The position numbers were made by a program, and so were the translations under genes. The notes below the pieces were generated by a model. It saw nothing but the letters and a program-made list of their open reading frames with translations, had not been told where the DNA came from and did no database searches. From a virus: 64,000 bases of DNA. The stretch is from positions 1 to 64,000 of IMG/VR virus record IMGVR_UViG_3300037487_001316. One strand, written 5' to 3'. Below, piece after piece: positions 6,383 to 20,664 of this stretch (position 1 is its first letter; every line of letters begins with the position of its first letter).

Positions 6383-7555
6383 ATGCAGCATCACTATAAA
6401 CTCGGATTCTACAACGTCGGGGATAAAACTTTTCTAAATAAGGCCGATGCGTTAATAGAAGCAACCCGTCTTAATACTTCTGTATATTGGAATTTTAATG
6501 ATTCTGTATTCTCCTCTATAGACTGGAGTATACCGATAACAACCGGATTAAATGAACTCTATAGGAAAAGGGCATTGCAACTTAGGGAAAAATATGATTT
6601 TATTTCTCTATATTATAGTGGCGGAGTAGATAGCACAAATGTATTACACTCTTTTATTAATAATGGAATATTATTAGATGAAGTAGTAATGTATCGCCCC
6701 AGAATTTTAGAATCAGAATCTAATTCACTTGATAGAACAAATAAGAATATATTTTCGGAAATAGAATTTGCAGCAATACCTTACCTACAAAAAGTGCTAA
6801 AGGATAGTCGCACTAAGATTAGAATTATTTATATTGATGAATCTATAAACGATTATCTTTCAGATGATAAATTGGTAGACGAGTTTCAAACTATTAATTT
6901 GTTTATGCCTACCGGGGTCGGCCGATTATCAATGAATCTAACAGACTCGACATGGAATAATTTATTATCTAATGGCAAGAAGCTATGTCATTTACACGGG
7001 ATAGATAAACCTATACCCAAATTAGTAAATGGAAGATATACATTTCAATTTCATGATACTGCTGTAACTCCTGCAGTTAATATTCCTAAATATAATTCGG
7101 CACGTTCGGAAATGATGGACCATCAATATCATGAGTTATTCTATTGGACCCCAGACCTACCACAAATAGTAATTAAGCAGTGTCAGGTAGTTAAAGATAT
7201 TAACACAGACGGATCTTTAAATTCGCTGTTCGAAAACTCAGATAGATGGAAACAAGATAAATTTACCTTCATACATAAATTTATCTATCCGGTACAGGTT
7301 AATGCTGTTCGAGATCTATTTGTCACTGAAAAACCGGGACCCGATATTTATTCGGGACAAGGTTTTTGGTTCTACGATAAAATGAATGAATATTCAAAGG
7401 GAGTGTTTAGCGATATTATTAAGAACATGCAAGATAATATAGATACTAGATTCTTTCGTGGTTTTAATAATACCAATTATTATCTGGAAGACCCCGATAT
7501 AGGTAGCCCAAAAACGGGATTAAGAGCTATTAAAAGTAAGGCACATATACTATGA
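6383..7555 (+). CDS. PP-loop protein (long type)
   Basis: YRKRALQLREKYDFISLYYSGGVDSTN; HGIDKP; FYWTPDLP. Confidence 0.7.
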   Translation: MQHHYKLGFYNVGDKTFLNKADALIEATRLNTSVYWNFNDSVFSSIDWSIPITTGLNELYRKRALQLREKYDFISLYYSGGVDSTNVLHSFINNGILLDEVVMYRPRILESESNSLDRTNKNIFSEIEFAAIPYLQKVLKDSRTKIRIIYIDESINDYLSDDKLVDEFQTINLFMPTGVGRLSMNLTDSTWNNLLSNGKKLCHLHGIDKPIPKLVNGRYTFQFHDTAVTPAVNIPKYNSARSEMMDHQYHELFYWTPDLPQIVIKQCQVVKDINTDGSLNSLFENSDRWKQDKFTFIHKFIYPVQVNAVRDLFVTEKPGPDIYSGQGFWFYDKMNEYSKGVFSDIIKNMQDNIDTRFFRGFNNTNYYLEDPDIGSPKTGLRAIKSKAHIL

Positions 7556-12966: not shown

Positions 12967-13638
12967 ATGAAAAGAGTAATAGAAATTCGAGCCGCAGAGG
13001 GCGGCGAAGATAGCAAGCTATTTACGATAGATTTGGCGCAGGCCTATATCCGCATGGCCACTCGTGTTGGGTGAACTAACCGCCTGATAAATGAATGCTC
13101 GGGACAGATAGAGATAGAAGTTCAGGGTGTTGATTTATCTGATTTGGATAATGAATCTGGTGGTCTGAGGCTGCAACGATGTCCCCCGACCGAGCGGAAA
13201 GGTCGGGTACACACTTCTACAGTCACGGTGGCGATTATAGATCCGTCTATTCGTATACCTGTTGTTCAAGATGAAGACTTGAAAGTAGAATGGTACTCGG
13301 GCACCGGCGCCGGTGGTCAACATAAAAATAAAAAACAGTGCTCTTGTCGAATAACTCATATCTCCACAGGTGCAATTGCTACCGCACAAACCAGAGAAAG
13401 AACCAATAGTTATAAGTTAGCAAGAGCCGATATCGAAAAGCGTATTATCGAGCAGCAGGTAGCAATAGCAAATAAACATATATCCGTTGATCGAAAACAG
13501 CAGGTCGGTTCTGGTATGCGAGGCGATAAAGTAAGGACAATACGATTCCAAGATAATAGTGTGGTTGATCATATTACTGGGAAACGGACTACGGCTGAGA
13601 AGTTCATGAAGGGCAATATGGATCTACTTTGGCCATAA
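12967..13638 (+). CDS. RF1-like class I peptide chain release factor lacking domain 1, with in-frame TGA at codon 36 (13072..13074)
   Basis: GGAG RBS then MKRVIEIRAAEGGEDSKLF..YIRMATRVG*TN..ESGGLRLQRCPPTERKGRVHTS..GAGGQHKNK..GSGMRGDKVRT; PxT and GGQ motifs; TGA aligns to the Trp of RF1 YAEARRW. Confidence 0.85.
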
Positions 13639-13904: not shown

Positions 13905-14038
13905 ACATACATATTGCAGTAGCTACACTGGAACACCGAAAGACTAATGCTTTAACCACTTTAACGTTGGTACAAGAGTTACTTAGGACCGGCCAGGAAG
14001 AGTAGGGCTACCGTGGATTCGAGCGCCACAATGTGTGT
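13905..14038 (+). ncRNA. unnamed structured RNA upstream of tmRNA
   Basis: Closing stem ACATACATATTG / CAATGTGTGT; inner hairpins CAGT-ACTG and GTGG-ATTCGAGCG-CCAC. Confidence 0.45.
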
Positions 14039-14045
14039 AAAAGAA

Positions 14046-14400
14046 TTGTTGTAATCCCTTCGAAATGAAGGCAAGCAAGACGGGGATTCGAATTCCCCCA
14101 GGTCCACCATAAAGTATATTAGAAGCATAGGTCAAGCCCTGTCAAGTTGTAGTTTAGTGAAGAACGCTGGTATATTTTATAATGGGCCTGCTCTGGTAAT
14201 CGATTGCGTGAGATAGTAGAGACGGCAACACGGTAGATGACGACCGTAAATCGCATAAAAATCGTAAATGCAAACGCATATACAACTGAGTCTTTTGTAG
14301 CTCTTGACCTTTCGGCTCTTGCTGATAGCGATATGGCTATGGAAATGGCTGCCTAAGAAACACCAACTCCGAGGTAGAAAGACCTTGTAACCAAACCAAT
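14046..14400 (+). ncRNA. ssrA: circularly permuted (two-piece) tmRNA: acceptor piece about 14046..14109, intervening segment 14110..14183, coding piece from 14184
   Basis: T-arm and CAGGTCC-ACCA (ends 14109) precede the 5' strand GGGCCTG (14184); G3.U70; tag frame 14270..14356 ANAYTTESFVALDLSALADSDMAMEMAA*. Confidence 0.9.
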
Positions 14401-14401
14401 C

Positions 14402-14427
14402 AAAATAGGGATTTCGGTCCCTATTTT
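14402..14427 (+). terminator. intrinsic terminator
   Basis: AAAATAGGGAT-TTCG-GTCCCTATTTT. Confidence 0.75.
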
Positions 14428-14441
14428 AATGATTATCAAAC

Positions 14442-14470
14442 TTGACAAACCAAAAATATCATTATATACT
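14442..14470 (+). promoter_or_regulatory. sigma70-type promoter
   Basis: TTGACA-N17-TATACT upstream of porin gene. Confidence 0.65.
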
Positions 14471-14529
14471 TAAGAGGGTAGGTAAATAATTACTCGCTCA
14501 AAAGCGTACACAAAAAGGAAATATATACA

Positions 14530-15417
14530 ATGAAAAAATTAGTATTAGCGGCATTCTTAGCCGTGGCATCACTCGCAGCAACGGCTCAGGTCTCTGTTTA
14601 CGGGTTGGTTCGTGAATATGTTGACAACACTAAGGTAGGTAACACTACTGTTACTAGTATGGTTGATGACACAAGCCGTATTGGTTTCAAGGCAAACGAA
14701 GCACTCGGTAATGGTTTATCTGCTCGTGTAGTTGTTGAAACTGATTTTAGCGGCAATGATCCAGCATTAGGTGCAGACACTAAACTAGGAAATCGTCAAA
14801 GTACAGTTGGTTTAGCTTCAAAGAACGGCTCATTAGACTTAGGTCGTAAATTAAATAGTCACTTTTTAGCAATTACAAACAATGATGTATTTGATACAGA
14901 TTATGGTTCTATTGCAAGCGACATTCATAATGTTCGTACTGTCCGCAGCGGCAACGCAGTGTTCCTTAACTACAATTTAGGCCCAGCTTCGATTGCGTTT
15001 GATCGTACAGTAACTGGTGGCAATGAAGCAACTAGTTATAGCGGAACAGGTAAATTAGGTCCTGTTATTGCTACAGTAGCTCGCTTCGAACAAGGTGCAG
15101 CAAAGAGCACAGTATTAGCAGCACAAACAGCATATGCTGGTAATAAGTTATTCCTTAGCGCAAGTCAGGATGCCGATGTACTTGGTACAACACGCGGTAC
15201 CTTAGCAGGAATTGCTCTACCAGTATCGGGATTACCTTTAACTCTTAAAGGTTCGTATGGTGTAAAGACTAGCGATTTTGCTGCTAAGGTTAGCGCATAC
15301 GCAGTTGGTGCAGAATATGACTTATCTAAGCGTACTTCTGTAAATGTTGCTTTACGCAATGTTAGTGATACAGTTGATACACGCCAGTTCGGCCTAGGAC
15401 TATCACATAGTTTCTAA
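14530..15417 (+). CDS. Gram-negative general porin (Betaproteobacteria type)
   Basis: Signal peptide; VSVYG; SRIGFKANEALGNGLSA; RQSTVGL; AVGAEYDLSKRT; C-terminal GLSHSF. Confidence 0.9.
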   Translation: MKKLVLAAFLAVASLAATAQVSVYGLVREYVDNTKVGNTTVTSMVDDTSRIGFKANEALGNGLSARVVVETDFSGNDPALGADTKLGNRQSTVGLASKNGSLDLGRKLNSHFLAITNNDVFDTDYGSIASDIHNVRTVRSGNAVFLNYNLGPASIAFDRTVTGGNEATSYSGTGKLGPVIATVARFEQGAAKSTVLAAQTAYAGNKLFLSASQDADVLGTTRGTLAGIALPVSGLPLTLKGSYGVKTSDFAAKVSAYAVGAEYDLSKRTSVNVALRNVSDTVDTRQFGLGLSHSF

Positions 15418-15432
15418 ACAAAACTAAATAAT

Positions 15433-15454
15433 AAAAGGGACTTCGGTCCCTTTT
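15433..15454 (+). terminator. intrinsic terminator
   Basis: AAAAGGGAC-TTCG-GTCCCTTTT. Confidence 0.75.
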
Positions 15455-15561
15455 CTGCTGAGTACTAACCGATAAAAAGGTAAATAACTTTGCTACACAG
15501 GGTAGCACCTAACAGACTTTAACAATTGATCGCTTAGTCTGTGCGATGTATAAAGGAAAAC

Positions 15562-16446
15562 ATGAACATGTATCAAGATCGCTTCGCCGTGGCAATAAAA
15601 CATAACGGCAAAATCCTCCGTGAAAACAAAGACTTAGTCCACTTACCCTATGGTAGTGAATTCAGCGTATTAGTTAAAAACCTAAACTCAAGACGAGCAA
15701 AATTTACCTTACACATCGATGGCACAGATGTGCTCGATGGTGAAGAAATTATTGTTAAAGGTAATTCTGAAATAGAAATGAAACGTTTCATTCGCAACGG
15801 AAATATGACCGAAGGTAATGCCTTTAAGTTCATAGAAAGAACAAAATCTATTGAAGACGGCCCACGCGGTATTAAGGTTGACGATGGTGTTGTCCGTGTT
15901 GAATTTTGGTTCGAACAAGAACAAGCCGAAATTAAAGTTAAAGATATTTATTGGGAAAAACACCATTATAGAGATTATTATCCACAACCGACTTACTGGA
16001 ATACAACTGGTTTAAGTGGATCTAGTGGCGTAAGTGGATCATTGGGTGATTCACAGTATATGAATACATCGTGTGCATCAGCATTAAGAAATGTAGTAAA
16101 TCAAGTATCAGCGCAATCTGCTACGTTTAGTGCAACAAGTGCATCTGCTACTGCTGATCCGCATATGGGCTCTATATGTGCCGATAAAGGTGAAATCCCA
16201 GTGGGTGATATAGGTATTACTGTACCGGGATCTAAGGTAGAACAAAAGTTTACACCTGTATTTGGTTTTAGATCAGAACTCAATTCACATGTTATTATTC
16301 TAAGAATAGTAGGTATGATTGGGGCAGTTGAGGTAGTGGCACCAATTACTGTGAAAGCCAAGCCTAAGTGCTCTACTTGTGGAAAGATGAATAAAGCAAC
16401 ATCAGCATTTTGTTCCGGTTGTGGAACCAGTCTGACTCTGTTATAG
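15562..16446 (+). CDS. hypothetical protein with C-terminal zinc ribbon
   Basis: AAGGA RBS; CSTCGK...FCSGCG. Confidence 0.65.
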   Translation: MNMYQDRFAVAIKHNGKILRENKDLVHLPYGSEFSVLVKNLNSRRAKFTLHIDGTDVLDGEEIIVKGNSEIEMKRFIRNGNMTEGNAFKFIERTKSIEDGPRGIKVDDGVVRVEFWFEQEQAEIKVKDIYWEKHHYRDYYPQPTYWNTTGLSGSSGVSGSLGDSQYMNTSCASALRNVVNQVSAQSATFSATSASATADPHMGSICADKGEIPVGDIGITVPGSKVEQKFTPVFGFRSELNSHVIILRIVGMIGAVEVVAPITVKAKPKCSTCGKMNKATSAFCSGCGTSLTLL

Positions 16447-16466
16447 TTGCTTAACTGAGACACACA

Positions 16467-16707
16467 AATAAACATATACCAAAGTAGCATAAAGAATGCG
16501 CTGTGAAAACAGAGAGCCTGGCAAGAGCGTTACCGGTAAGGCAATCTATGTTTATTTGTATCATCAGTATTTTTATCTATCAAGTATAGAGGTGTGTTAC
16601 ATACTGAGTACGAGGACGCTTGGAAATGAGTGGCTACTTGATAGATAAAGATTGAGTATAAGAGTGTTTAAGCATATCCGGATTTGAGCCGGAAGGATTT
16701 ACTCAAT
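16467..16707 (+). ncRNA. three tandem stem-closed RNA modules (about 16467..16557, 16572..16649, 16651..16707)
   Basis: AAATAAACATA/TATGTTTATTT; perfect 15-bp TTTATCTATCAAGTA/TACTTGATAGATAAA; ATTGAGTA/TACTCAAT. Confidence 0.55.
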
Positions 16708-16708
16708 A

Positions 16709-16716
16709 TATAAATA
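16709..16716 (+). promoter_or_regulatory. T4-type late promoter
   Basis: TATAAATA upstream of the leader ORF. Confidence 0.55.
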
Positions 16717-16742
16717 CAGTTACAACTTAATAGGAGTACAAC

Positions 16743-16781
16743 ATGACAGAGCAATAGGTGTTGAATAATGGTCCGCCATAA
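16743..16781 (+). CDS. leader peptide MTEQ-(UAG)-VLNNGPP with internal amber codon
   Basis: AGGAG at 16732..16736, 6 nt before ATG; ATG ACA GAG CAA TAG GTG TTG AAT AAT GGT CCG CCA TAA. Confidence 0.55.
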
Positions 16782-16843
16782 AACTAATCAAATGTTAGTA
16801 AGTTAGAAAACAAATTTGATTACATTTTATAAGGACAATAATC

Positions 16844-17215
16844 ATGAATTTCATCATCAATAAAGAAGAGTACCTATGCACAAAGGCTGCATGGAACAAA
16901 ATTGCAAACCGTAACGCTACGGATCACATTTTTTACAACGCTCTTCGCGGACACGACCTTAAACGCGGTTTTAGTCCGGTTCAATCAGAAAACAAAATAG
17001 CAGCAGGTATAAGGCCGTGGCAATCTTTTGACGCAGCAAAGCATGACGCATGGTGGAAAATCCGCGACAATGCATCAATGTGGTCGCATGATACACCAGA
17101 ACGCAGAGCAAGACGCGAAGCGGAAGAAAAAGAACGAATCGATTCCTTAGGTAAAAAGTACGGCGCGACTTTTACACCGGAACTTATTACAACATTAAGG
17201 GAATTACTTAAATGA
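16844..17215 (+). CDS. hypothetical protein
   Basis: AAGGA RBS; coupled (ATGA) to the Pth2-like gene. Confidence 0.7.
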   Translation: MNFIINKEEYLCTKAAWNKIANRNATDHIFYNALRGHDLKRGFSPVQSENKIAAGIRPWQSFDAAKHDAWWKIRDNASMWSHDTPERRARREAEEKERIDSLGKKYGATFTPELITTLRELLK

Positions 17216-17538
17216 ACTCATATATCTATACTTTTATCCGGGAGGATATTTCTCCTACTCAAAAGATTGTGCAGCTCGGCCACGCATGCCATGAAGCAGG
17301 TAAACTATTACATCATCAAGAACACAAACACGTATCGAGTTTGATTCTTCTATCTGCCAAGGATGAGGGTGATTTATTAGATATCGCGGCAAGAATTGAT
17401 TGTGCAGGTATTCAGTTCTACATATTTCATGAGCCCGATAATGACATGGGCTATAGTGCAATCTGTACAAGACCTGTAAGTAGTGCAAAGGAACGAGCAT
17501 TCTTTCAGAAGTGGGATCTATATAGACCCGCCGATTGA
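17212..17538 (+). CDS. Pth2-like peptidyl-tRNA hydrolase domain protein
   Basis: YTFIREDIS..QKIVQLGHAC..LILLSAKDE..FHEPD...SAICTRP matches the PTH2 superfamily pattern. Confidence 0.7.
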   Translation: MNSYIYTFIREDISPTQKIVQLGHACHEAGKLLHHQEHKHVSSLILLSAKDEGDLLDIAARIDCAGIQFYIFHEPDNDMGYSAICTRPVSSAKERAFFQKWDLYRPAD

Positions 17539-17563
17539 CAATAAATAAATGTGCCCTTATAAT
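17535..17563 (+). promoter_or_regulatory. perfect sigma70 consensus promoter for the amber tRNA; -10 box flanked by an 8-bp inverted repeat
   Basis: TTGACA-N17-TATAAT; ATGTGCCC-TTATAAT-GGGCACAT. Confidence 0.75.
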
Positions 17564-17575
17564 GGGCACATACTT

Positions 17576-17650
17576 GCCTTGTTAGCTTAGTGGAAAAGTA
17601 CAGGCCTCTAAAACCGTGGGTCATCGGTTCGATTCCGATACAAGGCACCA
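17576..17650 (+). tRNA. tRNA-Sup(CTA), amber suppressor with irregular anticodon stem
   Basis: GCCTTGT/ACAAGGC-ACCA acceptor, GCTT/AAGT D arm, loop CT-CTA-AA, ATCGG-TTCGATT-CCGAT T arm. Confidence 0.8.
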
Positions 17651-17662
17651 ATTTAGGATATT

Positions 17663-17845
17663 ATGAGAACACCACAAAATTTTGCTGATGAACGTGAAAA
17701 GTTAAATAAACTTATCGATGATACAAATGCCCCTATTATGGATCGTATTTTATCTTTATGTCACCTTTATCATTGGTATCAGGGCGATGTTCATATGCAG
17801 GCAAGAACTGTAACGCGGATAGAAGATCTCATTAGGTCACTATGA
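17663..17845 (+). CDS. hypothetical protein
   Basis: AGGA RBS; ATGA overlap with next gene. Confidence 0.55.
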   Translation: MRTPQNFADEREKLNKLIDDTNAPIMDRILSLCHLYHWYQGDVHMQARTVTRIEDLIRSL

Positions 17846-18231
17846 AAATAGGATTTACAGGTACTCGTCAAGGTATGAGCCAAAATCAAAAAGAGCAATT
17901 TGTTCTTAAGTTGTTTGAACTCGGCATCACAGAATTTCATCACGGTGACTGCATCGGTGCGGATGCCGATGCACATGATATTGTTAGAGAATTCTTCCCC
18001 GAAGTAAAGATTATAATTCATCCACCCGAGAGAACATATACACGGGCATTTAAGAAAGGTGATTTTAGTTATCCTCTAAAGCCTTATATTGAAAGAGATA
18101 GAGACATTGTAGATGACAGTGAACACCTAATAGGTTCGCCATTAGATGTAGAAGTAATTCGTAGCGGAACATGGACGACCATTCGCTACGCAAGAAAGAT
18201 AGGTCGCATACATACAGTATTGGAGAGATAA
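17842..18231 (+). CDS. SLOG superfamily (DprA/YspA-like) nucleotide-binding protein
   Basis: IGFTGTR; HHGDCIGAD; RDRDIVD; SGTWTTIRYA. Confidence 0.7.
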   Translation: MKIGFTGTRQGMSQNQKEQFVLKLFELGITEFHHGDCIGADADAHDIVREFFPEVKIIIHPPERTYTRAFKKGDFSYPLKPYIERDRDIVDDSEHLIGSPLDVEVIRSGTWTTIRYARKIGRIHTVLER

Positions 18232-18416
18232 TGAATAAAGCTTGGACAGTTACAGTCGAAGAAGATGAAGATGGCAATGCCATTCTACCATTACCAAAAG
18301 AGATGATTGATGAACTTGGCTGGTTAAATGGTGATATTCTTGATATGGATATTGAGGGAGATACAGTTATTGTTAAAAATATCACCTGCGATGAACGTAA
18401 AGGTAAGGTTGTATAA
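18231..18416 (+). CDS. AbrB/MazE-like swapped-hairpin DNA-binding protein
   Basis: ILPLPKEMIDELGWLNGDILDMDIEGDTVIVK. Confidence 0.7.
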   Translation: MNKAWTVTVEEDEDGNAILPLPKEMIDELGWLNGDILDMDIEGDTVIVKNITCDERKGKVV

Positions 18417-18449
18417 ATAATTGATCTAAGCTATAATAGCTTAAGATTT

Positions 18450-18534
18450 GCCCCTTTGGCGGAATTGGTAGACGCACTGGATTTAGGTTCCAGCACCGAA
18501 AGGCGTGGGAGTTCGAGTCTCCCAGGGGGCACCA
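18450..18534 (+). tRNA. tRNA-Leu(TAG)
   Basis: Cloverleaf with long V arm, loop TT-TAG-GT, CCA end. Confidence 0.9.
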
Positions 18535-18538
18535 AGTT

Positions 18539-18794
18539 TAGAGTGACCAGTACGGCCTGACCGATACTAAGAACGTTTTGAAATTTTCGACCCTAACTAA
18601 TATCGGTTATCGACCGAGGTAGATATTTCGAAGTGCCCTATTGTGTTTGTTCGAATCCTGTACAAAAGGGCGAATGGTAGGAGAGAGGGAATAATTGGCC
18701 CTCCGGTTGCAGGTAGGTGTTGAGCGTACATCTTAAGATCCTAAGAATCCTGCTGCAATGTCAATTTAGTGAAAAAGCGGTTTAAGTCATTCTA
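18539..18794 (+). ncRNA. unnamed multi-helix structured RNA (about 255 nt)
   Basis: Closing stem TAGAGTGAC/GTCATTCTA and at least four inner helices; no ORF. Confidence 0.55.
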
Positions 18795-18833
18795 ATTTAA
18801 TTTTGTTGTAATAGATGGTGATAAATATAGATT

Positions 18834-18907
18834 CAGAGTGTGGTGAAATGGTATCATGCGACGTTTGGGACGTCGTGGCCAAGGTTCGATTCCTTGTACT
18901 CTGACCA
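18834..18907 (+). tRNA. tRNA-Pro(TGG)
   Basis: CGACG-TT TGG GA-CGTCG; CCA end. Confidence 0.9.
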
Positions 18908-19105
18908 ATCTTGAGGATGGTACACCCAAAAGGTACCTCAATACCTGGCTAGGGGATAATAGCTGATGGTCACTCTCATTGATGTGGCGGTACCGGAAAC
19001 CAGAAATCCGGCGGTCACGCTTTTGACCGGTAGTCTTAGATTTGTCCAATCACGGGTACCCGGGGGTTGGTTGTTGTGAAACATCGGCGTAAATACTTCT
19101 AAGAT
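18908..19105 (+). ncRNA. unnamed GC-rich structured RNA after tRNA-Pro
   Basis: ATCTTGAGG/CTTCTAAGAT closure; CCGGA..TCCGG and CGGTCA-CGCTTT-TGACCG hairpins. Confidence 0.45.
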
Positions 19106-19142
19106 ATGGATTTACCATCCGTAGCACTAATTTATAAACTGT

Positions 19143-19751
19143 ATGCATGATAAAATTATTTCGGATTTAGAGTCGGTATTATCGCAGTATAAAACTATAG
19201 GTCTTCTTGTTTCCGGGGGATTTGATAGTACACTACTCGCGTATCTTGTGCATGAATTACGCGAAAAGAATCAAACTAATAACACATTTGAATTCTTTAC
19301 TGTGCCGAGATATGATGATTCATTAGTTCATGCTAAACGAATTATCGATTATATTGATATTAAATTTAATAAGATGCCTACAGTATGGCATATGGTAGGC
19401 AATCCAGATCTACATTTTACTCAACAGGTTAGTAGCGGCATAGGCGAAGCATTAAGAAATTTTAAGTTTGATATATTGCTAACCGGCGATAATATAGTTC
19501 CTCCTATAGATGAAGTGCCCGGCGGACCTCCACGTAAGAGAGGCGATTATCCTAGACTGTATAAGCCTTTCTTTGACTATACAAAAGATGTTATGTTACA
19601 ATTATGTATAGATCGTGGACTAACCGATATTATGGAAATAACACATACTTGCACAGAATCGAAAACATTAAGGTGCAATGTATGCTGGCAATGTAGAGAA
19701 CGTGATTGGGCATTTAAGAAATGTGGATATATCGATCCAGGCACAATGTAA
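19143..19751 (+). CDS. QueC-like (7-cyano-7-deazaguanine synthase-like) PP-loop ATPase
   Basis: LVSGGFDST; THTCTE...RCNVCWQCRERDWAF. Confidence 0.7.
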   Translation: MHDKIISDLESVLSQYKTIGLLVSGGFDSTLLAYLVHELREKNQTNNTFEFFTVPRYDDSLVHAKRIIDYIDIKFNKMPTVWHMVGNPDLHFTQQVSSGIGEALRNFKFDILLTGDNIVPPIDEVPGGPPRKRGDYPRLYKPFFDYTKDVMLQLCIDRGLTDIMEITHTCTESKTLRCNVCWQCRERDWAFKKCGYIDPGTM

Positions 19752-19757
19752 AAGATA

Positions 19758-19952
19758 TTAGGTAAAGGGCTCGTAGAAAGAGATATGCCGGTGGATATGC
19801 AGCAGCAGGTTGATAAACTGTCAGGGCCGCTTTCCTGTCTTAAGGTATCTCCTCCCGGGTGTCGGGAAAATGCGTCACAATGAGACTTAGGATTGGCAAT
19901 CTGTTGAAGTCCGATAGTAGCTAGATTACCGGTTAGCAAGACACTCACCTAA
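19758..19952 (+). ncRNA. unnamed structured RNA (about 195 nt)
   Basis: TTAGGT/ACCTAA closure; GAGATAT/GTATCTC, TCCCG/CGGGA and GCTAG/TTAGC helices; GC-rich, no credible ORF. Confidence 0.45.
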
Positions 19953-19959
19953 ATTTATT

Positions 19960-20664
19960 ATGAAACAATCGATTGTAAAATACTGTGTTGGTACACCATT
20001 CTATATAGAATGTTTTACTATAGAGAATCAGCCCGGCGAATGGAATTCAACTAAGGTTGCTATCTTTAGAGACGAAATACTCATTGGTGAATATATCCGC
20101 AACTATGCGAATTATGCTACGACAACATTTTCTCCGTTCTCAATCGGTGAAGATTGGTATGCACTTTATAGTGCTGATTATACTGCTACTCGTGTGATGA
20201 AATTACATAAAGATAGCATAGAAGATTGGTGCGGAGAAGAAAGATCATCTGTCGGATTCTGTCCTGTTGAAATATATGTTCCTCGATATAGGATGGTAAA
20301 AGGTTCTTTTGAATCAGACGGTAAGACACACGAGTTTGAAACATACGCCGTAGATTGTGATTATAAAACAGAAGGCGAATTCTTAAAAGATATGCCCGAA
20401 TTTGATTTTGAACATCATACTGATTTTGGATTTCTATGTGGATGCGTGTGGGGAGATGATTCCAACTGGAAATTATTATATATCGACCTATCAAATATTC
20501 AGAATAAAGAACTTAAAATATCTGACAAATTTGGTTATTGGGAATTACCTGTAAATACGAAATTAAAAGAATGTATTAATATGTCTAATTGGGAACCTAA
20601 TCATGCATGGGTAGAACTGACACGTATAGAACATATTAATCTTAAGACAGGCGAACGCTGCTAA
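19960..20664 (+). CDS. hypothetical protein
   Basis: 234-aa ORF; GCVWGDD motif. Confidence 0.65.
   Translation: MKQSIVKYCVGTPFYIECFTIENQPGEWNSTKVAIFRDEILIGEYIRNYANYATTTFSPFSIGEDWYALYSADYTATRVMKLHKDSIEDWCGEERSSVGFCPVEIYVPRYRMVKGSFESDGKTHEFETYAVDCDYKTEGEFLKDMPEFDFEHHTDFGFLCGCVWGDDSNWKLLYIDLSNIQNKELKISDKFGYWELPVNTKLKECINMSNWEPNHAWVELTRIEHINLKTGERC

What the first reader, a model, noticed from the sequence alone, without database searches (positions are those of the whole stretch)
16709..17650. Candidate amber-sensing module: UAG-containing leader peptide ending GPP-stop, Pth2-like gene and amber suppressor tRNA
Seen: TATAAATA, a strong AGGAG RBS and a 12-codon ORF MTEQ-UAG-VLNNGPP-UAA (16743..16781); then a hairpin (TAATCAAAT/ATTTGATTA, about 16785..16822), a 123-aa unknown gene coupled to a Pth2-like gene, and directly after it a tRNA with anticodon CUA. 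TAG is a normal stop for several other genes here, so the tRNA is not serving genome-wide recoding in this window. Known: XPP motifs and Pro-stop slow elongation and termination, and Pth enzymes recycle dropped peptidyl-tRNA. Inference: only ribosomes that read through UAG reach the GPP-stop pause, which would remodel the hairpin and tune the downstream genes. That is an attenuator measuring the suppressor tRNA to RF1 balance. I know of no described system like it.
Basis: partly seen in the sequence, partly recalled or inferred. Interest (0 to 1): 0.88.

Follow-up and report, generated by a model that had tools for sequence, protein, structure and literature searches.

The report
Stop-codon-gated leader sensing suppressor tRNA
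A large freshwater phage that uses the normal genetic code puts a UAG stop early in a tiny leader gene, so that two downstream genes, one with the fold of a peptidyl-tRNA hydrolase, are probably translated only when the phage's own UAG-reading tRNA overrides that stop.

Summary
The window is the start of a 134-kb standard-code phage contig.

**Layout at 16732-17650**
- SD, then a leader reading MTEQ-UAG-VLNNGPP-UAA.
- A stem that pairs the last leader codons with the SD of the next gene.
- ORF123 (unknown helical fold), coupled to ORF108 (Pth2 fold).
- A CUA tRNA with its own perfect sigma-70 promoter.

**Comparative evidence**
- All 19 IMG/VR contigs with an ORF108 homolog carry an early in-frame stop. 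In 15 it sits in such a leader. In 4 it is codon 3 of the hydrolase-like gene itself.
- Nine of the 14 GenBank phage records I read also carry it as codon 3-4, among them CBB, GAP32, ME3, RsoM2USA and Arash.
- The stop matches the phage's suppressor tRNA: TAG with CUA, TGA with UCA, TAA with UUA.
- Post-stop codons vary like coding sequence.
- The leader-to-SD pairing appears in the minimum-energy fold of 27 of 28 sequences.

**Limits**
- PP-stop is frequent (12 of 28) but not universal.
- The tRNA is not under the leader's control.
- What the hydrolase-like protein does is unknown.

Eight literature searches found no description. This scan's own earlier notes report the same layout in at least 54 other genomes.

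The parts
16709..16716 (+). TATAAATA, a possible -10-like element upstream of the leader. Its role is uncertain.
   Evidence: Present. It occurs 9 times forward and 8 times reverse in the contig, so there is no strand bias. The sigma-70 scan did not call a promoter here. Relatives keep CATAAATACAGTT at this place.
16732..16736 (+). Shine-Dalgarno AGGAG of the leader, 6 nt before its ATG.
   Evidence: An SD-like motif precedes the leader ATG in the related loci found by the pattern scans, which required such a motif.
16743..16781 (+). Leader ORF MTEQ-UAG-VLNNGPP-UAA. The gating stop TAG is at 16755-16757 and the final stop TAA at 16779-16781.
   Evidence: Homologous leaders occur in 28 non-identical sequences. 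Post-stop codon entropy is pos3 > pos1 > pos2, the +4 base is a purine in 28 of 28, and the second stop is never the same as the first in 28 of 28.
16771..16783 (+). Anti-SD arm: GUCC (from the Gly-Pro codons) plus AUAAAA (last base of the last Pro codon, the stop and two more bases).
   Evidence: MFE and centroid structures. RNAalifold consensus of 7 GPP-type leaders. Pairing with the SD region in 27 of 28 MFE folds.
16785..16822 (+).
   Evidence: One search prints the matching stretch of 7 relatives, and the folds show an inner hairpin there in most of them.
16825..16836 (+). 3' arm UUUUAU..GGAC, which contains the SD (AAGGA, 16831-16835) of ORF123.
   Evidence: Duplex energy with the leader's 3' end is -6.6 kcal/mol against a local control mean of -2.5; 3.1% of controls are as good.
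16844..17215 (+). ORF123, an all-helical protein of unknown function. It is the first gene behind the gate.
   Evidence: No Pfam hit; PHROG 22448, function unknown. AF2 pLDDT 92.1; no PDB match (best Z 3.3). One library protein, P0112, fuses an ORF123-like domain to an ORF108-like domain.
17212..17538 (+). ORF108, a Pth2-fold protein, translationally coupled to ORF123 by an ATGA overlap.
   Evidence: AF2 pLDDT 93.6. The top 12 Foldseek matches are all Pth2/Bit1 family, TM 0.69-0.77, E 1e-5 to 3e-4. The family profile hits a PDB peptidyl-tRNA hydrolase at E 6.5e-4. 15 of 27 members hit Pfam PTH2 at E <= 0.01.
17535..17563 (+). Perfect sigma-70 consensus promoter (TTGACA, 17 nt, TATAAT) for the tRNA. 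The -35 element overlaps the ORF108 stop codon.
   Evidence: 12 of 12 consensus positions match. An equivalent promoter lies after the ORF108 homolog in 12 of 13 relatives printed; in 10 of them the tRNA follows within about 15 nt, and in L003 and L120 it lies more than 100 nt further on.
17549..17571 (.). 8-bp GC-rich inverted repeat with the -10 element in its loop.
   Evidence: Relatives keep an inverted repeat here with different arm sequences.
17576..17650 (+). tRNA with anticodon CUA (amber suppressor type) and a weak anticodon stem.
   Evidence: The same sequence oddity is in L112 and L113.

Best explanation
This is a read-through-gated translational switch. The CUA tRNA is made from its own strong host-type promoter. 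Ribosomes start on the leader. At UAG (codon 5 here, codon 3 in most relatives) release factor 1 competes with the suppressor tRNA.

- If the ribosome terminates there, the SD of ORF123 stays paired with the last leader codons, and ORF123 and the coupled ORF108 stay silent.
- If UAG is read through, the ribosome runs seven more codons to UAA. It then sits on the anti-SD arm and frees the SD, and ORF123 and ORF108 are translated. A slow Pro-Pro-stop termination may lengthen that window.

Output therefore follows the efficiency of amber suppression in the cell. In other phages the same logic is wired directly: the stop is codon 3-4 of the hydrolase-like gene.

Shown by sequence comparison: the conservation, the match between stop and anticodon, the coding signature after the stop, the predicted pairing, and the Pth2 fold. 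Inferred: that read-through happens, that it unmasks the SD, and everything about the role of the product.

My preferred role is that the Pth2-fold enzyme acts on the suppressor tRNA or on by-products of read-through, which would close a feedback or compensation loop.
For: 1. Conservation.
- An early in-frame stop gates the ORF108 family in 19 of 19 IMG/VR contigs: 15 by a leader and 4 inside the gene.
- It is present in 22 of the 22 metagenome loci with enough upstream DNA.
- It is present in 9 of the 14 GenBank phage records I read, out of 37 hits.
- In a distant subfamily of 18 loci, 8 have it in the gene and 3 have leader candidates.

2. Key and lock.
- TAG goes with tRNA-CUA in most loci.
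- The one TGA leader (L019) lies in a contig with two tRNA-UCA.
- The TAA leader L023 lies about 600 nt after a tRNA-UUA, while its homolog L136 has TAG and tRNA-CUA.
- A matching suppressor was found in the same contig for 15 of the 19 IMG/VR contigs.

3. The post-stop frame is translated.
- Codon-position entropy is 1.03 / 0.71 / 0.38 (pos 3, 1, 2) in the 6-codon type and 1.42 / 0.80 / 0.49 in the 7-codon type.
- The base after the stop is a purine in 28 of 28.
- The second stop differs from the first in 28 of 28.

4. Further in-frame TAGs lie inside ORF108 homologs, with conservation continuing beyond them: L127, L131, L132 and L133 at codon 47, L128 at codon 36, L024 at codon 54.

5. SD masking.
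- In 27 of 28 sequences the MFE fold pairs 5-12 nt of the leader's 3' end with the SD region.
- The median rank of the duplex energy against local controls is 0.013.
- The leader type co-varies with the SD type: UCUUC with GGAAGA, GUCC with GGAC, CCUC with GAGG.

6. ORF108 has the Pth2 fold.

7. The tRNA has an independent, conserved consensus promoter.
Against: - No experiment was done; all evidence is comparative.
- The window's own fold is not more stable than shuffles (z = -0.94).
- RNAalifold gave no consensus on the mixed set of 23 sequences or on the 14 Ser-Ser-type sequences. On the 7 GPP-type sequences it found no compensatory pair.
- L022 and L135 show poor leader-to-SD pairing.
- The window's tRNA has only 2 Watson-Crick pairs in its anticodon stem, so it may be a poor suppressor.
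- One complete 56-kb phage (G006) has the TAG-gated gene but no tRNA at all.
- Suppressors were not found for L018 (a 34-kb fragment), L020 or L024. For the last two only about 3.3 kb was read.
- 5 of the 14 GenBank records and 5 of the 18 distant loci show no gate.
- The bacterial locus L138 has a tRNA-UUA but no recognisable leader.
- The related sequences are not independent, so the counts overstate the number of independent events.
Confidence: 0.72

Rival explanations
1. Transcription attenuation. The hairpin plus the U-rich tract after the leader acts as an intrinsic terminator, and a read-through ribosome prevents it from forming, as in trp- or pheL-type attenuators.
For: A hairpin followed by UUUUAU or AAUUUUU lies between the leader and ORF123 in the window and its relatives.
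Against: The stem is AT-rich and has a 20-nt loop. The terminator scan found no + strand terminator in 16300-17900. The U-tract is itself paired with the leader's stop region in the predicted fold. The class with the stop inside the gene reaches the same end with no hairpin at all.
Confidence: 0.07
2. A bar-like minigene. The very short ORF (ATG, one codon, stop in most relatives) makes peptidyl-tRNA drop off the ribosome, as recalled for phage lambda bar. The Pth2-like gene is there to cope with or exploit that. The suppressor tRNA plays no part.
For: 21 of 28 leaders have a single codon between ATG and the stop, behind a strong SD. A peptidyl-tRNA-hydrolase fold is encoded next to it.
Against: The frame after the stop shows a coding signature and ends at a second, different stop. 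The pre-stop length varies from 1 to 6 codons. The stop identity follows the anticodon of the linked tRNA. Stops also lie inside the hydrolase-like gene itself.
Confidence: 0.07
3. An evolutionary intermediate rather than a regulator. These are the first TAG codons of phages drifting towards TAG reassignment (code 15), tolerated because a suppressor tRNA is present, with no sensing role.
For: Standard-code phages that carry suppressor tRNAs are discussed as possible precursors of recoding in 10.1101/2021.08.26.457843 (passages read). LR756501 has further in-frame stops and may be recoded.
Against: The stops always sit at the same place, codon 3-8 of one gene family or of its leader, across very distant phages. 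No other gated gene was found in this 134-kb contig. The leader-to-SD architecture serves no purpose under this reading.
Confidence: 0.08
4. The leader is an ordinary upstream ORF that ends at the first stop. The conserved stretch behind it is conserved only as RNA structure, and the downstream genes are simply kept at a low constitutive level.
For: The last two or three post-stop codons are explained by pairing with the SD.
Against: The first four post-stop codons are unpaired in the predicted folds yet stay in frame, with third-position variation. The second stop is always in frame and of another kind. The stop matches the anticodon.
Confidence: 0.05

Closest known systems
Leader-peptide translational attenuation of the ermC / cat type (recalled, not from a call)
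   Same: A short SD-driven leader ORF sits ahead of the regulated gene. The SD of that gene is sequestered in a stem involving the leader region. The position of a ribosome on the leader decides whether the SD is free.
   Different: The signal there is a drug-stalled ribosome. Here it would be whether a stop codon is read through by a suppressor tRNA. No arrest is needed: reaching the distal stop is enough.
prfB (release factor 2) autoregulation through an early in-frame UGA (recalled)
   Same: An early in-frame stop is used as a sensor of termination efficiency at that stop. The competition is between a release factor and an alternative decoding event.
   Different: prfB bypasses the stop by a +1 frameshift, and its product is the factor that reads the stop. 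Here the frame is unchanged, the competitor is a dedicated tRNA, and the product is a Pth2-fold protein.
Stop-codon-recoded phages with suppressor tRNAs and 'code change modules' (10.1101/2021.08.26.457843, passages read)
   Same: A phage-encoded suppressor tRNA allows translation of phage genes that hold in-frame stops, which is proposed there as a timing device.
   Different: Those phages have in-frame stops in many late genes. This phage reads as code 11 throughout, and the only gated unit found is this one. That paper does not mention a hydrolase (0 occurrences).
Orphan suppressor tRNAs of standard-code jumbo phages (XacN1, PMC5852040; Atu_ph07, PMC6102473; passages read)
   Same: Standard-code large phages carry CUA or UCA tRNAs together with Pth genes.
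   Different: [quoted passage not shown] The gated Pth2-fold family is such a target in related phages. XacN1's own homolog is an ungated N-terminal fusion.
RAPP / RGPP arrest peptides (PMC10951233, PMC12992588, PMC7897499; search listing and start of abstracts only)
   Same: Short regulatory leader peptides ending in Gly/Ala-Pro-Pro control a downstream gene.
   Different: The window's leader ends N-G-P-P followed directly by a stop, and it lacks the Arg. 16 of 28 leaders have no PP.
Phage lambda bar minigenes and Pth (recalled)
   Same: A two-codon ORF behind a strong SD, with a link to peptidyl-tRNA hydrolase.
   Different: See the second rival explanation: the frame beyond the stop is conserved, and the stop follows the tRNA.
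Synthetic amber-gated circuits (PMC7969014, search listing and start of abstract only)
   Same: A suppressor tRNA gates the translation of a gene that holds an in-frame stop.
   Different: That circuit is engineered. This one is natural and is linked to a Pth2-fold gene.

Membership tests
Pth2 peptidyl-tRNA hydrolase (Pfam PF01981), for ORF108 | Sequence score above Pfam's gathering threshold | tested here: not met
   17 bits, E 0.007, against a cut-off of 23. 15 of 27 family members hit at E <= 0.01, best 1.2e-4.
Pth2 peptidyl-tRNA hydrolase (Pfam PF01981), for ORF108 | Pth2 / Bit1 alpha-beta fold | tested here: met
   AF2 model pLDDT 93.6. The 12 Foldseek hits with E <= 0.001 are all Pth2 family (1q7s, 3erj, 2zv3, 1rlk, 1wn2, 1xty), TM 0.69-0.77.
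Pth2 peptidyl-tRNA hydrolase (Pfam PF01981), for ORF108 | Conserved active-site residues | tested here: inconclusive
   Invariant in 27 sequences: Y6, R10, D12, V20, Q21, H24, L55, E74, P75, D76, G80, T86, L103. The R-D-L and Q..HA motifs align to a PDB peptidyl-tRNA hydrolase, 24bt_A. The C-terminal motif was not aligned. Which residues are catalytic in Pth2 I know only from recall.
Pth2 peptidyl-tRNA hydrolase (Pfam PF01981), for ORF108 | Hydrolysis of peptidyl-tRNA | not testable with these tools
   Needs an enzyme assay.
Amber suppressor tRNA | tRNA cloverleaf with CUA anticodon, U33 and a purine at position 37 | tested here: met
   Rfam tRNA 53 bits, loop CUCUAAA. CUA is invariant in the 8 aligned homologs.
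Amber suppressor tRNA | Regular 5-bp anticodon stem with a 7-nt loop | tested here: not met
   3 of 5 pairs are non-canonical in the window, and ARAGORN calls an 8-nt loop. Relatives such as L005 have 5 pairs, by my reading.
Amber suppressor tRNA | Aminoacylation and decoding of UAG | not testable with these tools
   Similarity to 200-odd phage tRNAs gave no consistent isotype.
erm / cat-type leader-peptide translational attenuator | Short SD-driven leader ORF directly upstream of the regulated gene | tested here: met
erm / cat-type leader-peptide translational attenuator | SD of the regulated gene sequestered by pairing with leader-proximal RNA | tested here: met
   Predicted in 27 of 28 sequences and in the RNAalifold consensus of 7. 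This is prediction only, and the window's z-score is -0.94.
erm / cat-type leader-peptide translational attenuator | Ligand-dependent ribosome arrest on the leader | not tested
   No arrest motif is required by the data. The trigger proposed here is read-through.
prfB-type autoregulatory recoding | Bypass of the in-frame stop by a +1 frameshift | tested here: not met
   The conserved continuation is in the zero frame.
RAPP / RGPP arrest peptide | Arg-(Ala/Gly)-Pro-Pro motif | tested here: not met
   The window has N-G-P-P. None of the 28 leaders has R-[AG]-P-P, and L019 has Q-R-P-P.
TAG-recoded (code 15) phage | In-frame TAG in many genes and low coding density under code 11 | tested here: not met
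   87.5% coverage under code 11. Reading TAG as sense adds little (36,612 to 39,623 aa in + strand ORFs of at least 100 aa). The in-frame TAG-joined ORF pairs at 7552/8509 and 9389/9998 are separate genes.

The most novel reading that the evidence does not exclude
The module is a natural homeostat, and in some phages a weapon, for stop-codon suppression. On this reading the Pth2-fold enzyme specifically strips the suppressor tRNA, either as aminoacyl- or as peptidyl-tRNA(CUA). Because the enzyme is made only in proportion to read-through, this gives negative feedback that holds suppression at a set level in a phage that still ends about a tenth of its genes in TAG.

Phages that carry the gated gene but no tRNA would use the same device differently. 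The complete 56-kb G006 is the example. They would use it to detect and disarm the suppressor tRNAs of competing, possibly recoded, phages.
Probability: 0.25. Interest if true: 0.95.

Novelty: new variant of a known kind. Interest (0 to 1): 0.85.

Why it matters
Large standard-code phages often carry suppressor tRNAs with no known purpose. The XacN1 authors wrote that they could not identify potential target genes (PMC5852040). This finding gives those tRNAs a conserved, dedicated target: a Pth2-fold gene family that is locked by the very stop codon the tRNA reads. The lock is either direct or works through a leader that masks the SD.

If it works as proposed, three things follow.

- It would be a natural sensor of the balance between release factor and suppressor tRNA, a kind of signal not known to be read by a bacterial or phage leader.
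- It bears on how genetic-code change starts and is controlled in phages.
- It offers a compact natural part for amber-gated circuits.

It is directly testable, because cultured phages carry it: CBB, GAP32, XbC2, ME3, RsoM2USA and Arash. It also shows that the gene is mis-annotated or missing in several GenBank records. In RsoM2USA nothing is annotated there. In CBB, GAP32 and Arash only a C-terminal piece is annotated. In Arash the CUA tRNA is labelled tRNA-Phe.

Tried and rejected
- **Genome-wide recoding.** Rejected. The TAG-joined in-frame ORF pairs at 7552/8509 and 9389/9998 are tandem separate genes, each with its own start and motif.
- **Other TAG-gated genes in this contig.** None credible was found.
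- **RNAalifold.** It gave no consensus structure on all 23 leaders or on the 14 Ser-Ser-type leaders. I put this down to a MAFFT alignment that is not in structural register. I therefore relied on per-sequence folds and duplex controls.
- **Amino-acid identity of the suppressor.** Global similarity to 200-odd phage tRNAs gave no consistent isotype. The discriminator base varies between A and G. The internal TAG positions fall at variable columns.
- **ORF123 function.** No Pfam hit and PHROG function unknown. Foldseek on PDB gave nothing at E <= 0.001. VIA-align wide gave a best Z of 3.3. The ESM Atlas gave no usable hit.
- **Complex prediction of ORF108 with ORF123.** No verdict (score 0.00). 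This is not evidence either way.
- **PDB sequence search with the first small profile.** It found nothing related.
- **tRNA pattern search.** A pattern for CUA tRNAs in four records found nothing because it was too strict. I replaced it by fetching the records and running ARAGORN.
- **T4-like late promoter reading of TATAAATA.** There is no strand bias (9 forward, 8 reverse).
- **RNA evidence.** Contigs from four RNA-library runs match parts of 14000-19000 exactly. One 151-nt contig lies over the leader (16646-16796). They are assembled contigs and may derive from DNA, so they show nothing about transcription or read-through.
- **Megablast of 14000-20000 against phage records.** It hit only a tRNA-Leu.
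- **The search for related loci with P0046 and P0020.** No loci were found.
- **Literature.** Eight searches found no paper describing a stop-gated leader or a stop-gated Pth2 gene linked to a phage suppressor tRNA. Only open-access papers and bioRxiv are searched, and supplements were closed. The tRNA and gene tables of the XacN1, Atu_ph07 and Borges papers could bear on this.
Full report
**What the window is.** The window is the first 64 kb of a single 134,154-bp virus record. GC is about 38% and nearly all genes are on the + strand. Under the standard code, 145 + strand ORFs of at least 100 aa hold 36,612 codons. A greedy set of 186 ORFs covers 87.5% of the contig and ends in TAA 122, TGA 44 and TAG 20 times. 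Reading TAG as sense adds little. The two long in-frame ORF pairs joined by TAG are tandem separate genes. So this is a code-11 phage in which TAG is a working stop.

The neighbourhood is rich in translation parts:
- an RF-like gene, with PCRF and RF-1 domains when its in-frame TGA is read through;
- a two-piece tmRNA at 14000-14428;
- twelve tRNAs.

Near-identical DNA occurs in freshwater and lake metagenomes of several studies.

**The observation.** There are two caveats. The tRNA's anticodon stem has three non-canonical pairs of five in the Rfam register. Pfam PTH2 is sub-threshold for ORF108. Taken alone the leader is not remarkable. The contig holds 65 SD-preceded mini-ORFs ending in TAG, and the local fold is no more stable than shuffles (z = -0.94).

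**Conservation.** Searching IMG/VR with ORF108 and ORF123 gave eight loci. Seven have a CUA tRNA right after the ORF108 homolog. All seven also have an SD and a tiny ORF, mostly M-M-stop. It continues in frame for six or seven codons to a second stop.

A profile search gave 19 contigs.
- Fifteen have such a leader.
- Four have no leader. Instead TAG is codon 3 of the ORF108 homolog itself.

- The 22 with enough upstream DNA are all gated.
- The other four are cut upstream.
- Several of these loci duplicate IMG/VR contigs. Two are the window's own phage from other samples, with the same odd tRNA.

In GenBank phages, tblastn found 37 records and I read 14.
- Nine have TAG as codon 3 or 4 of the gene: CBB, GAP32, XbC2, Kaldavass, ME3, RsoM2USA, Arash, LR756511 and LR756501.
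- Five have no gate: XacN1, CM1, Xoo-sp13 and Hallingskeid, which are N-terminal fusions, and RaK2.

A profile search of 1.84 billion representatives found 3,066 family members at E <= 0.001. A distant branch sampled through one of them gave 18 loci:
- 8 have an early in-frame TAG in the gene;
- 1 is an ambiguous TGA case next to a tRNA-UCA;
- 3 have leader candidates ending PP-stop;
- 1 has only an internal TAG;
- 5 have no gate that I could see.

Fifteen of those 18 have a suppressor tRNA within 1.5 kb.

**Lock and key.** The gating stop follows the tRNA.
- TAG goes with CUA in most loci.
- The only TGA leader (L019) lies in a contig that carries two tRNA-UCA.
- The TAA leader of L023 lies about 600 nt behind a tRNA-UUA. 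Its clear homolog L136 has TAG and a tRNA-CUA at the same place.
- CBB and RsoM2USA each carry one tRNA-CUA elsewhere in the genome. Arash has one 1 kb downstream.

The exceptions are these.
- L018 has a TAA leader but no UUA tRNA among the 26 tRNAs of a 34-kb fragment rated 9% complete.
- For L020 and L024 only about 3.3 kb was read.
- G006 is a complete 56-kb phage with the gated gene and no tRNA at all.

**Is the part behind the stop translated?** Across 28 non-identical leaders:
- The post-stop codons vary most at the third position and least at the second (1.03 / 0.71 / 0.38 for positions 3, 1, 2, and 1.42 / 0.80 / 0.49).
- They include Ser codon switches between TCT and AGT.
- The base after the stop is always a purine. 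As I recall the classic context studies, that favours suppression.
- The second stop is never of the same kind as the first.

Five ORF108 homologs (L127, L131, L132, L133 and L128) and L024 hold a further in-frame TAG, with conservation continuing beyond it. Reinitiation at the codon after the stop is unlikely, because that codon is GTN, ATH, AAT or AAC.

**The RNA switch.** Folding from the first stop to the next ATG shows the same design in 27 of 28 sequences. The last leader codons and the second stop pair with the U-rich tract and SD of the next gene, around an inner AT-rich hairpin.
- The duplex is better than all but a median 1.3% of local control windows.
- The two leader types go with two SD types: UCUUC with GGAAGA and GUCC with GGAC. 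Odd leaders pair through other words, such as CCUC with GAGG.
- RNAalifold recovers the structure for the seven GPP-type leaders, but without compensatory changes inside that close group. It fails on the mixed alignments.

In the window, GUCC (16771-16774) pairs with GGAC (16833-16836) and AUAAAA with UUUUAU. By the usual ribosome footprint (recalled), a ribosome with UAG in its A site reaches to about 16765, short of the anti-SD arm. One with UAA in its A site covers the whole arm. No + strand terminator is predicted here.

So the likely mechanism is translational unmasking. ORF108 then follows ORF123 through the ATGA overlap.

PP-stop occurs in 12 of 28 leaders, in at least seven different peptide contexts. 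That suggests selection. But the Pro codons are also the complement of a GGAGG-type SD, so a pause is possible and not demonstrated. The RAPP/RGPP arrest motif is absent, since no Arg is present.

**The tRNA is an input, not an output.** A perfect TTGACA-17-TATAAT promoter lies at 17535-17563, its -35 overlapping the ORF108 stop. An inverted repeat surrounds the -10. An equivalent promoter lies after the ORF108 homolog in 12 of 13 relatives printed. In 10 of them the tRNA follows within about 15 nt. The repeat is kept with different arm sequences.

**The products.**
- ORF108 folds with high confidence (pLDDT 93.6). All its significant Foldseek matches are Pth2/Bit1-family hydrolases, TM up to 0.77. 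The family profile finds a PDB peptidyl-tRNA hydrolase at E 6.5e-4. Thirteen residues are invariant in 27 sequences.
- ORF123 is a confident helical model with no match.
- One library protein fuses the two domains, which argues that they work together.
- ORF123 is absent from the class with the stop inside the gene and from L022 and L135.

What the enzyme does is not known. The tight physical link to the suppressor tRNA and the gate suggest two options. It may act on that tRNA, giving feedback. Or it may clear by-products of read-through, alongside the phage's tmRNA and RF-like gene. A positive-feedback role fits poorly with G006, which has no tRNA to amplify.

**Comparison and novelty.** The device works like an erm/cat leader attenuator and, in concept, like the prfB in-frame stop. 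It differs in its signal, which is suppression by a dedicated tRNA, and in its output. Known recoded phages use suppressors to read many late genes, whereas here a single conserved family is locked. Eight literature searches found no description (see Tried and rejected). The XacN1 paper states that no targets of its suppressors could be identified.

After my analysis I looked at this scan's own notes. 64 notes in at least 54 other genomes hold the same words, and several follow-up agents reached similar readings. These are unchecked AI notes, not independent evidence. One of them gave me the RAPP/RGPP lead, which I checked.

I rate the finding a new variant of a known kind, of high interest. 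Regulation by read-through I hold at about 0.7, and the feedback role of the enzyme at about 0.25.

Noticed in passing
window 12967-13638: A short release-factor-like gene. With its single in-frame TGA read through, it has the PCRF (C-terminal part) and RF-1 domains. A 60%-identical copy lies in the tRNA cluster of G001, and a partial copy lies upstream of the tmRNA in L002. If it recognises UAG it would compete with the suppressor tRNA.
   Followed up: partly
window 14000-14428: A two-piece (permuted) tmRNA of betaproteobacterial type with a long tag. Relatives L001 and L002 keep a tmRNA at the same place, and L067 and RsoM2USA also carry one.
   Followed up: no
window 14530-15417: A Gram-negative porin gene (Pfam Porin_4, E 2e-23) inside a phage contig.
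   Followed up: no
window 16467-16707: Conserved stem-closed RNA modules lie between the zinc-ribbon gene and the leader. Relatives keep the closing stems and a CCTGGCAAG..GCG..TACC core, and have a TTGACA-17-TAAAGT/TACAAT promoter just upstream (by eye). There is no Rfam hit. They may form the 5' part of the leader transcript.
   Followed up: partly
L023 690-860 and L138 745-920: tRNA-like genes (acceptor and T arm present) with a long insertion of about 100 nt lie just upstream of the leader region in two distant loci. ARAGORN did not call them.
   Followed up: no
L016 1852-1998 (also L130): A tRNA-CUA is directly followed by a tRNA-UUA, so both an amber and an ochre suppressor sit behind one gated operon.
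   Followed up: no
L027 2007-2081: A CUA tRNA whose anticodon loop reads as 8 nt (CCUCUAGU) follows a gated ORF108 homolog.
   Followed up: no
G006 (contig of L007), whole 56,031 bp: A complete phage with direct terminal repeats has the TAG-at-codon-3 hydrolase-like gene but no tRNA gene at all.
   Followed up: partly
P0112 (224 aa): A natural fusion of an ORF123-like and an ORF108-like domain in one protein.
   Followed up: no
GenBank records OQ632216 (L071), MG752970 (L070), KU574722 (L068), JN882285 (L142): The gated gene is unannotated (RsoM2USA) or annotated only from an internal start (CBB, GAP32, Arash). In Arash the CUA tRNA is labelled tRNA-Phe.
   Followed up: partly
L138 (Novimethylophilus kurashikiensis contig), 275-1836: A bacterial genome, presumably at a prophage, carries a tRNA-UUA plus ORF123 and ORF108 homologs. 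I could not recognise a gating leader there.
   Followed up: partly
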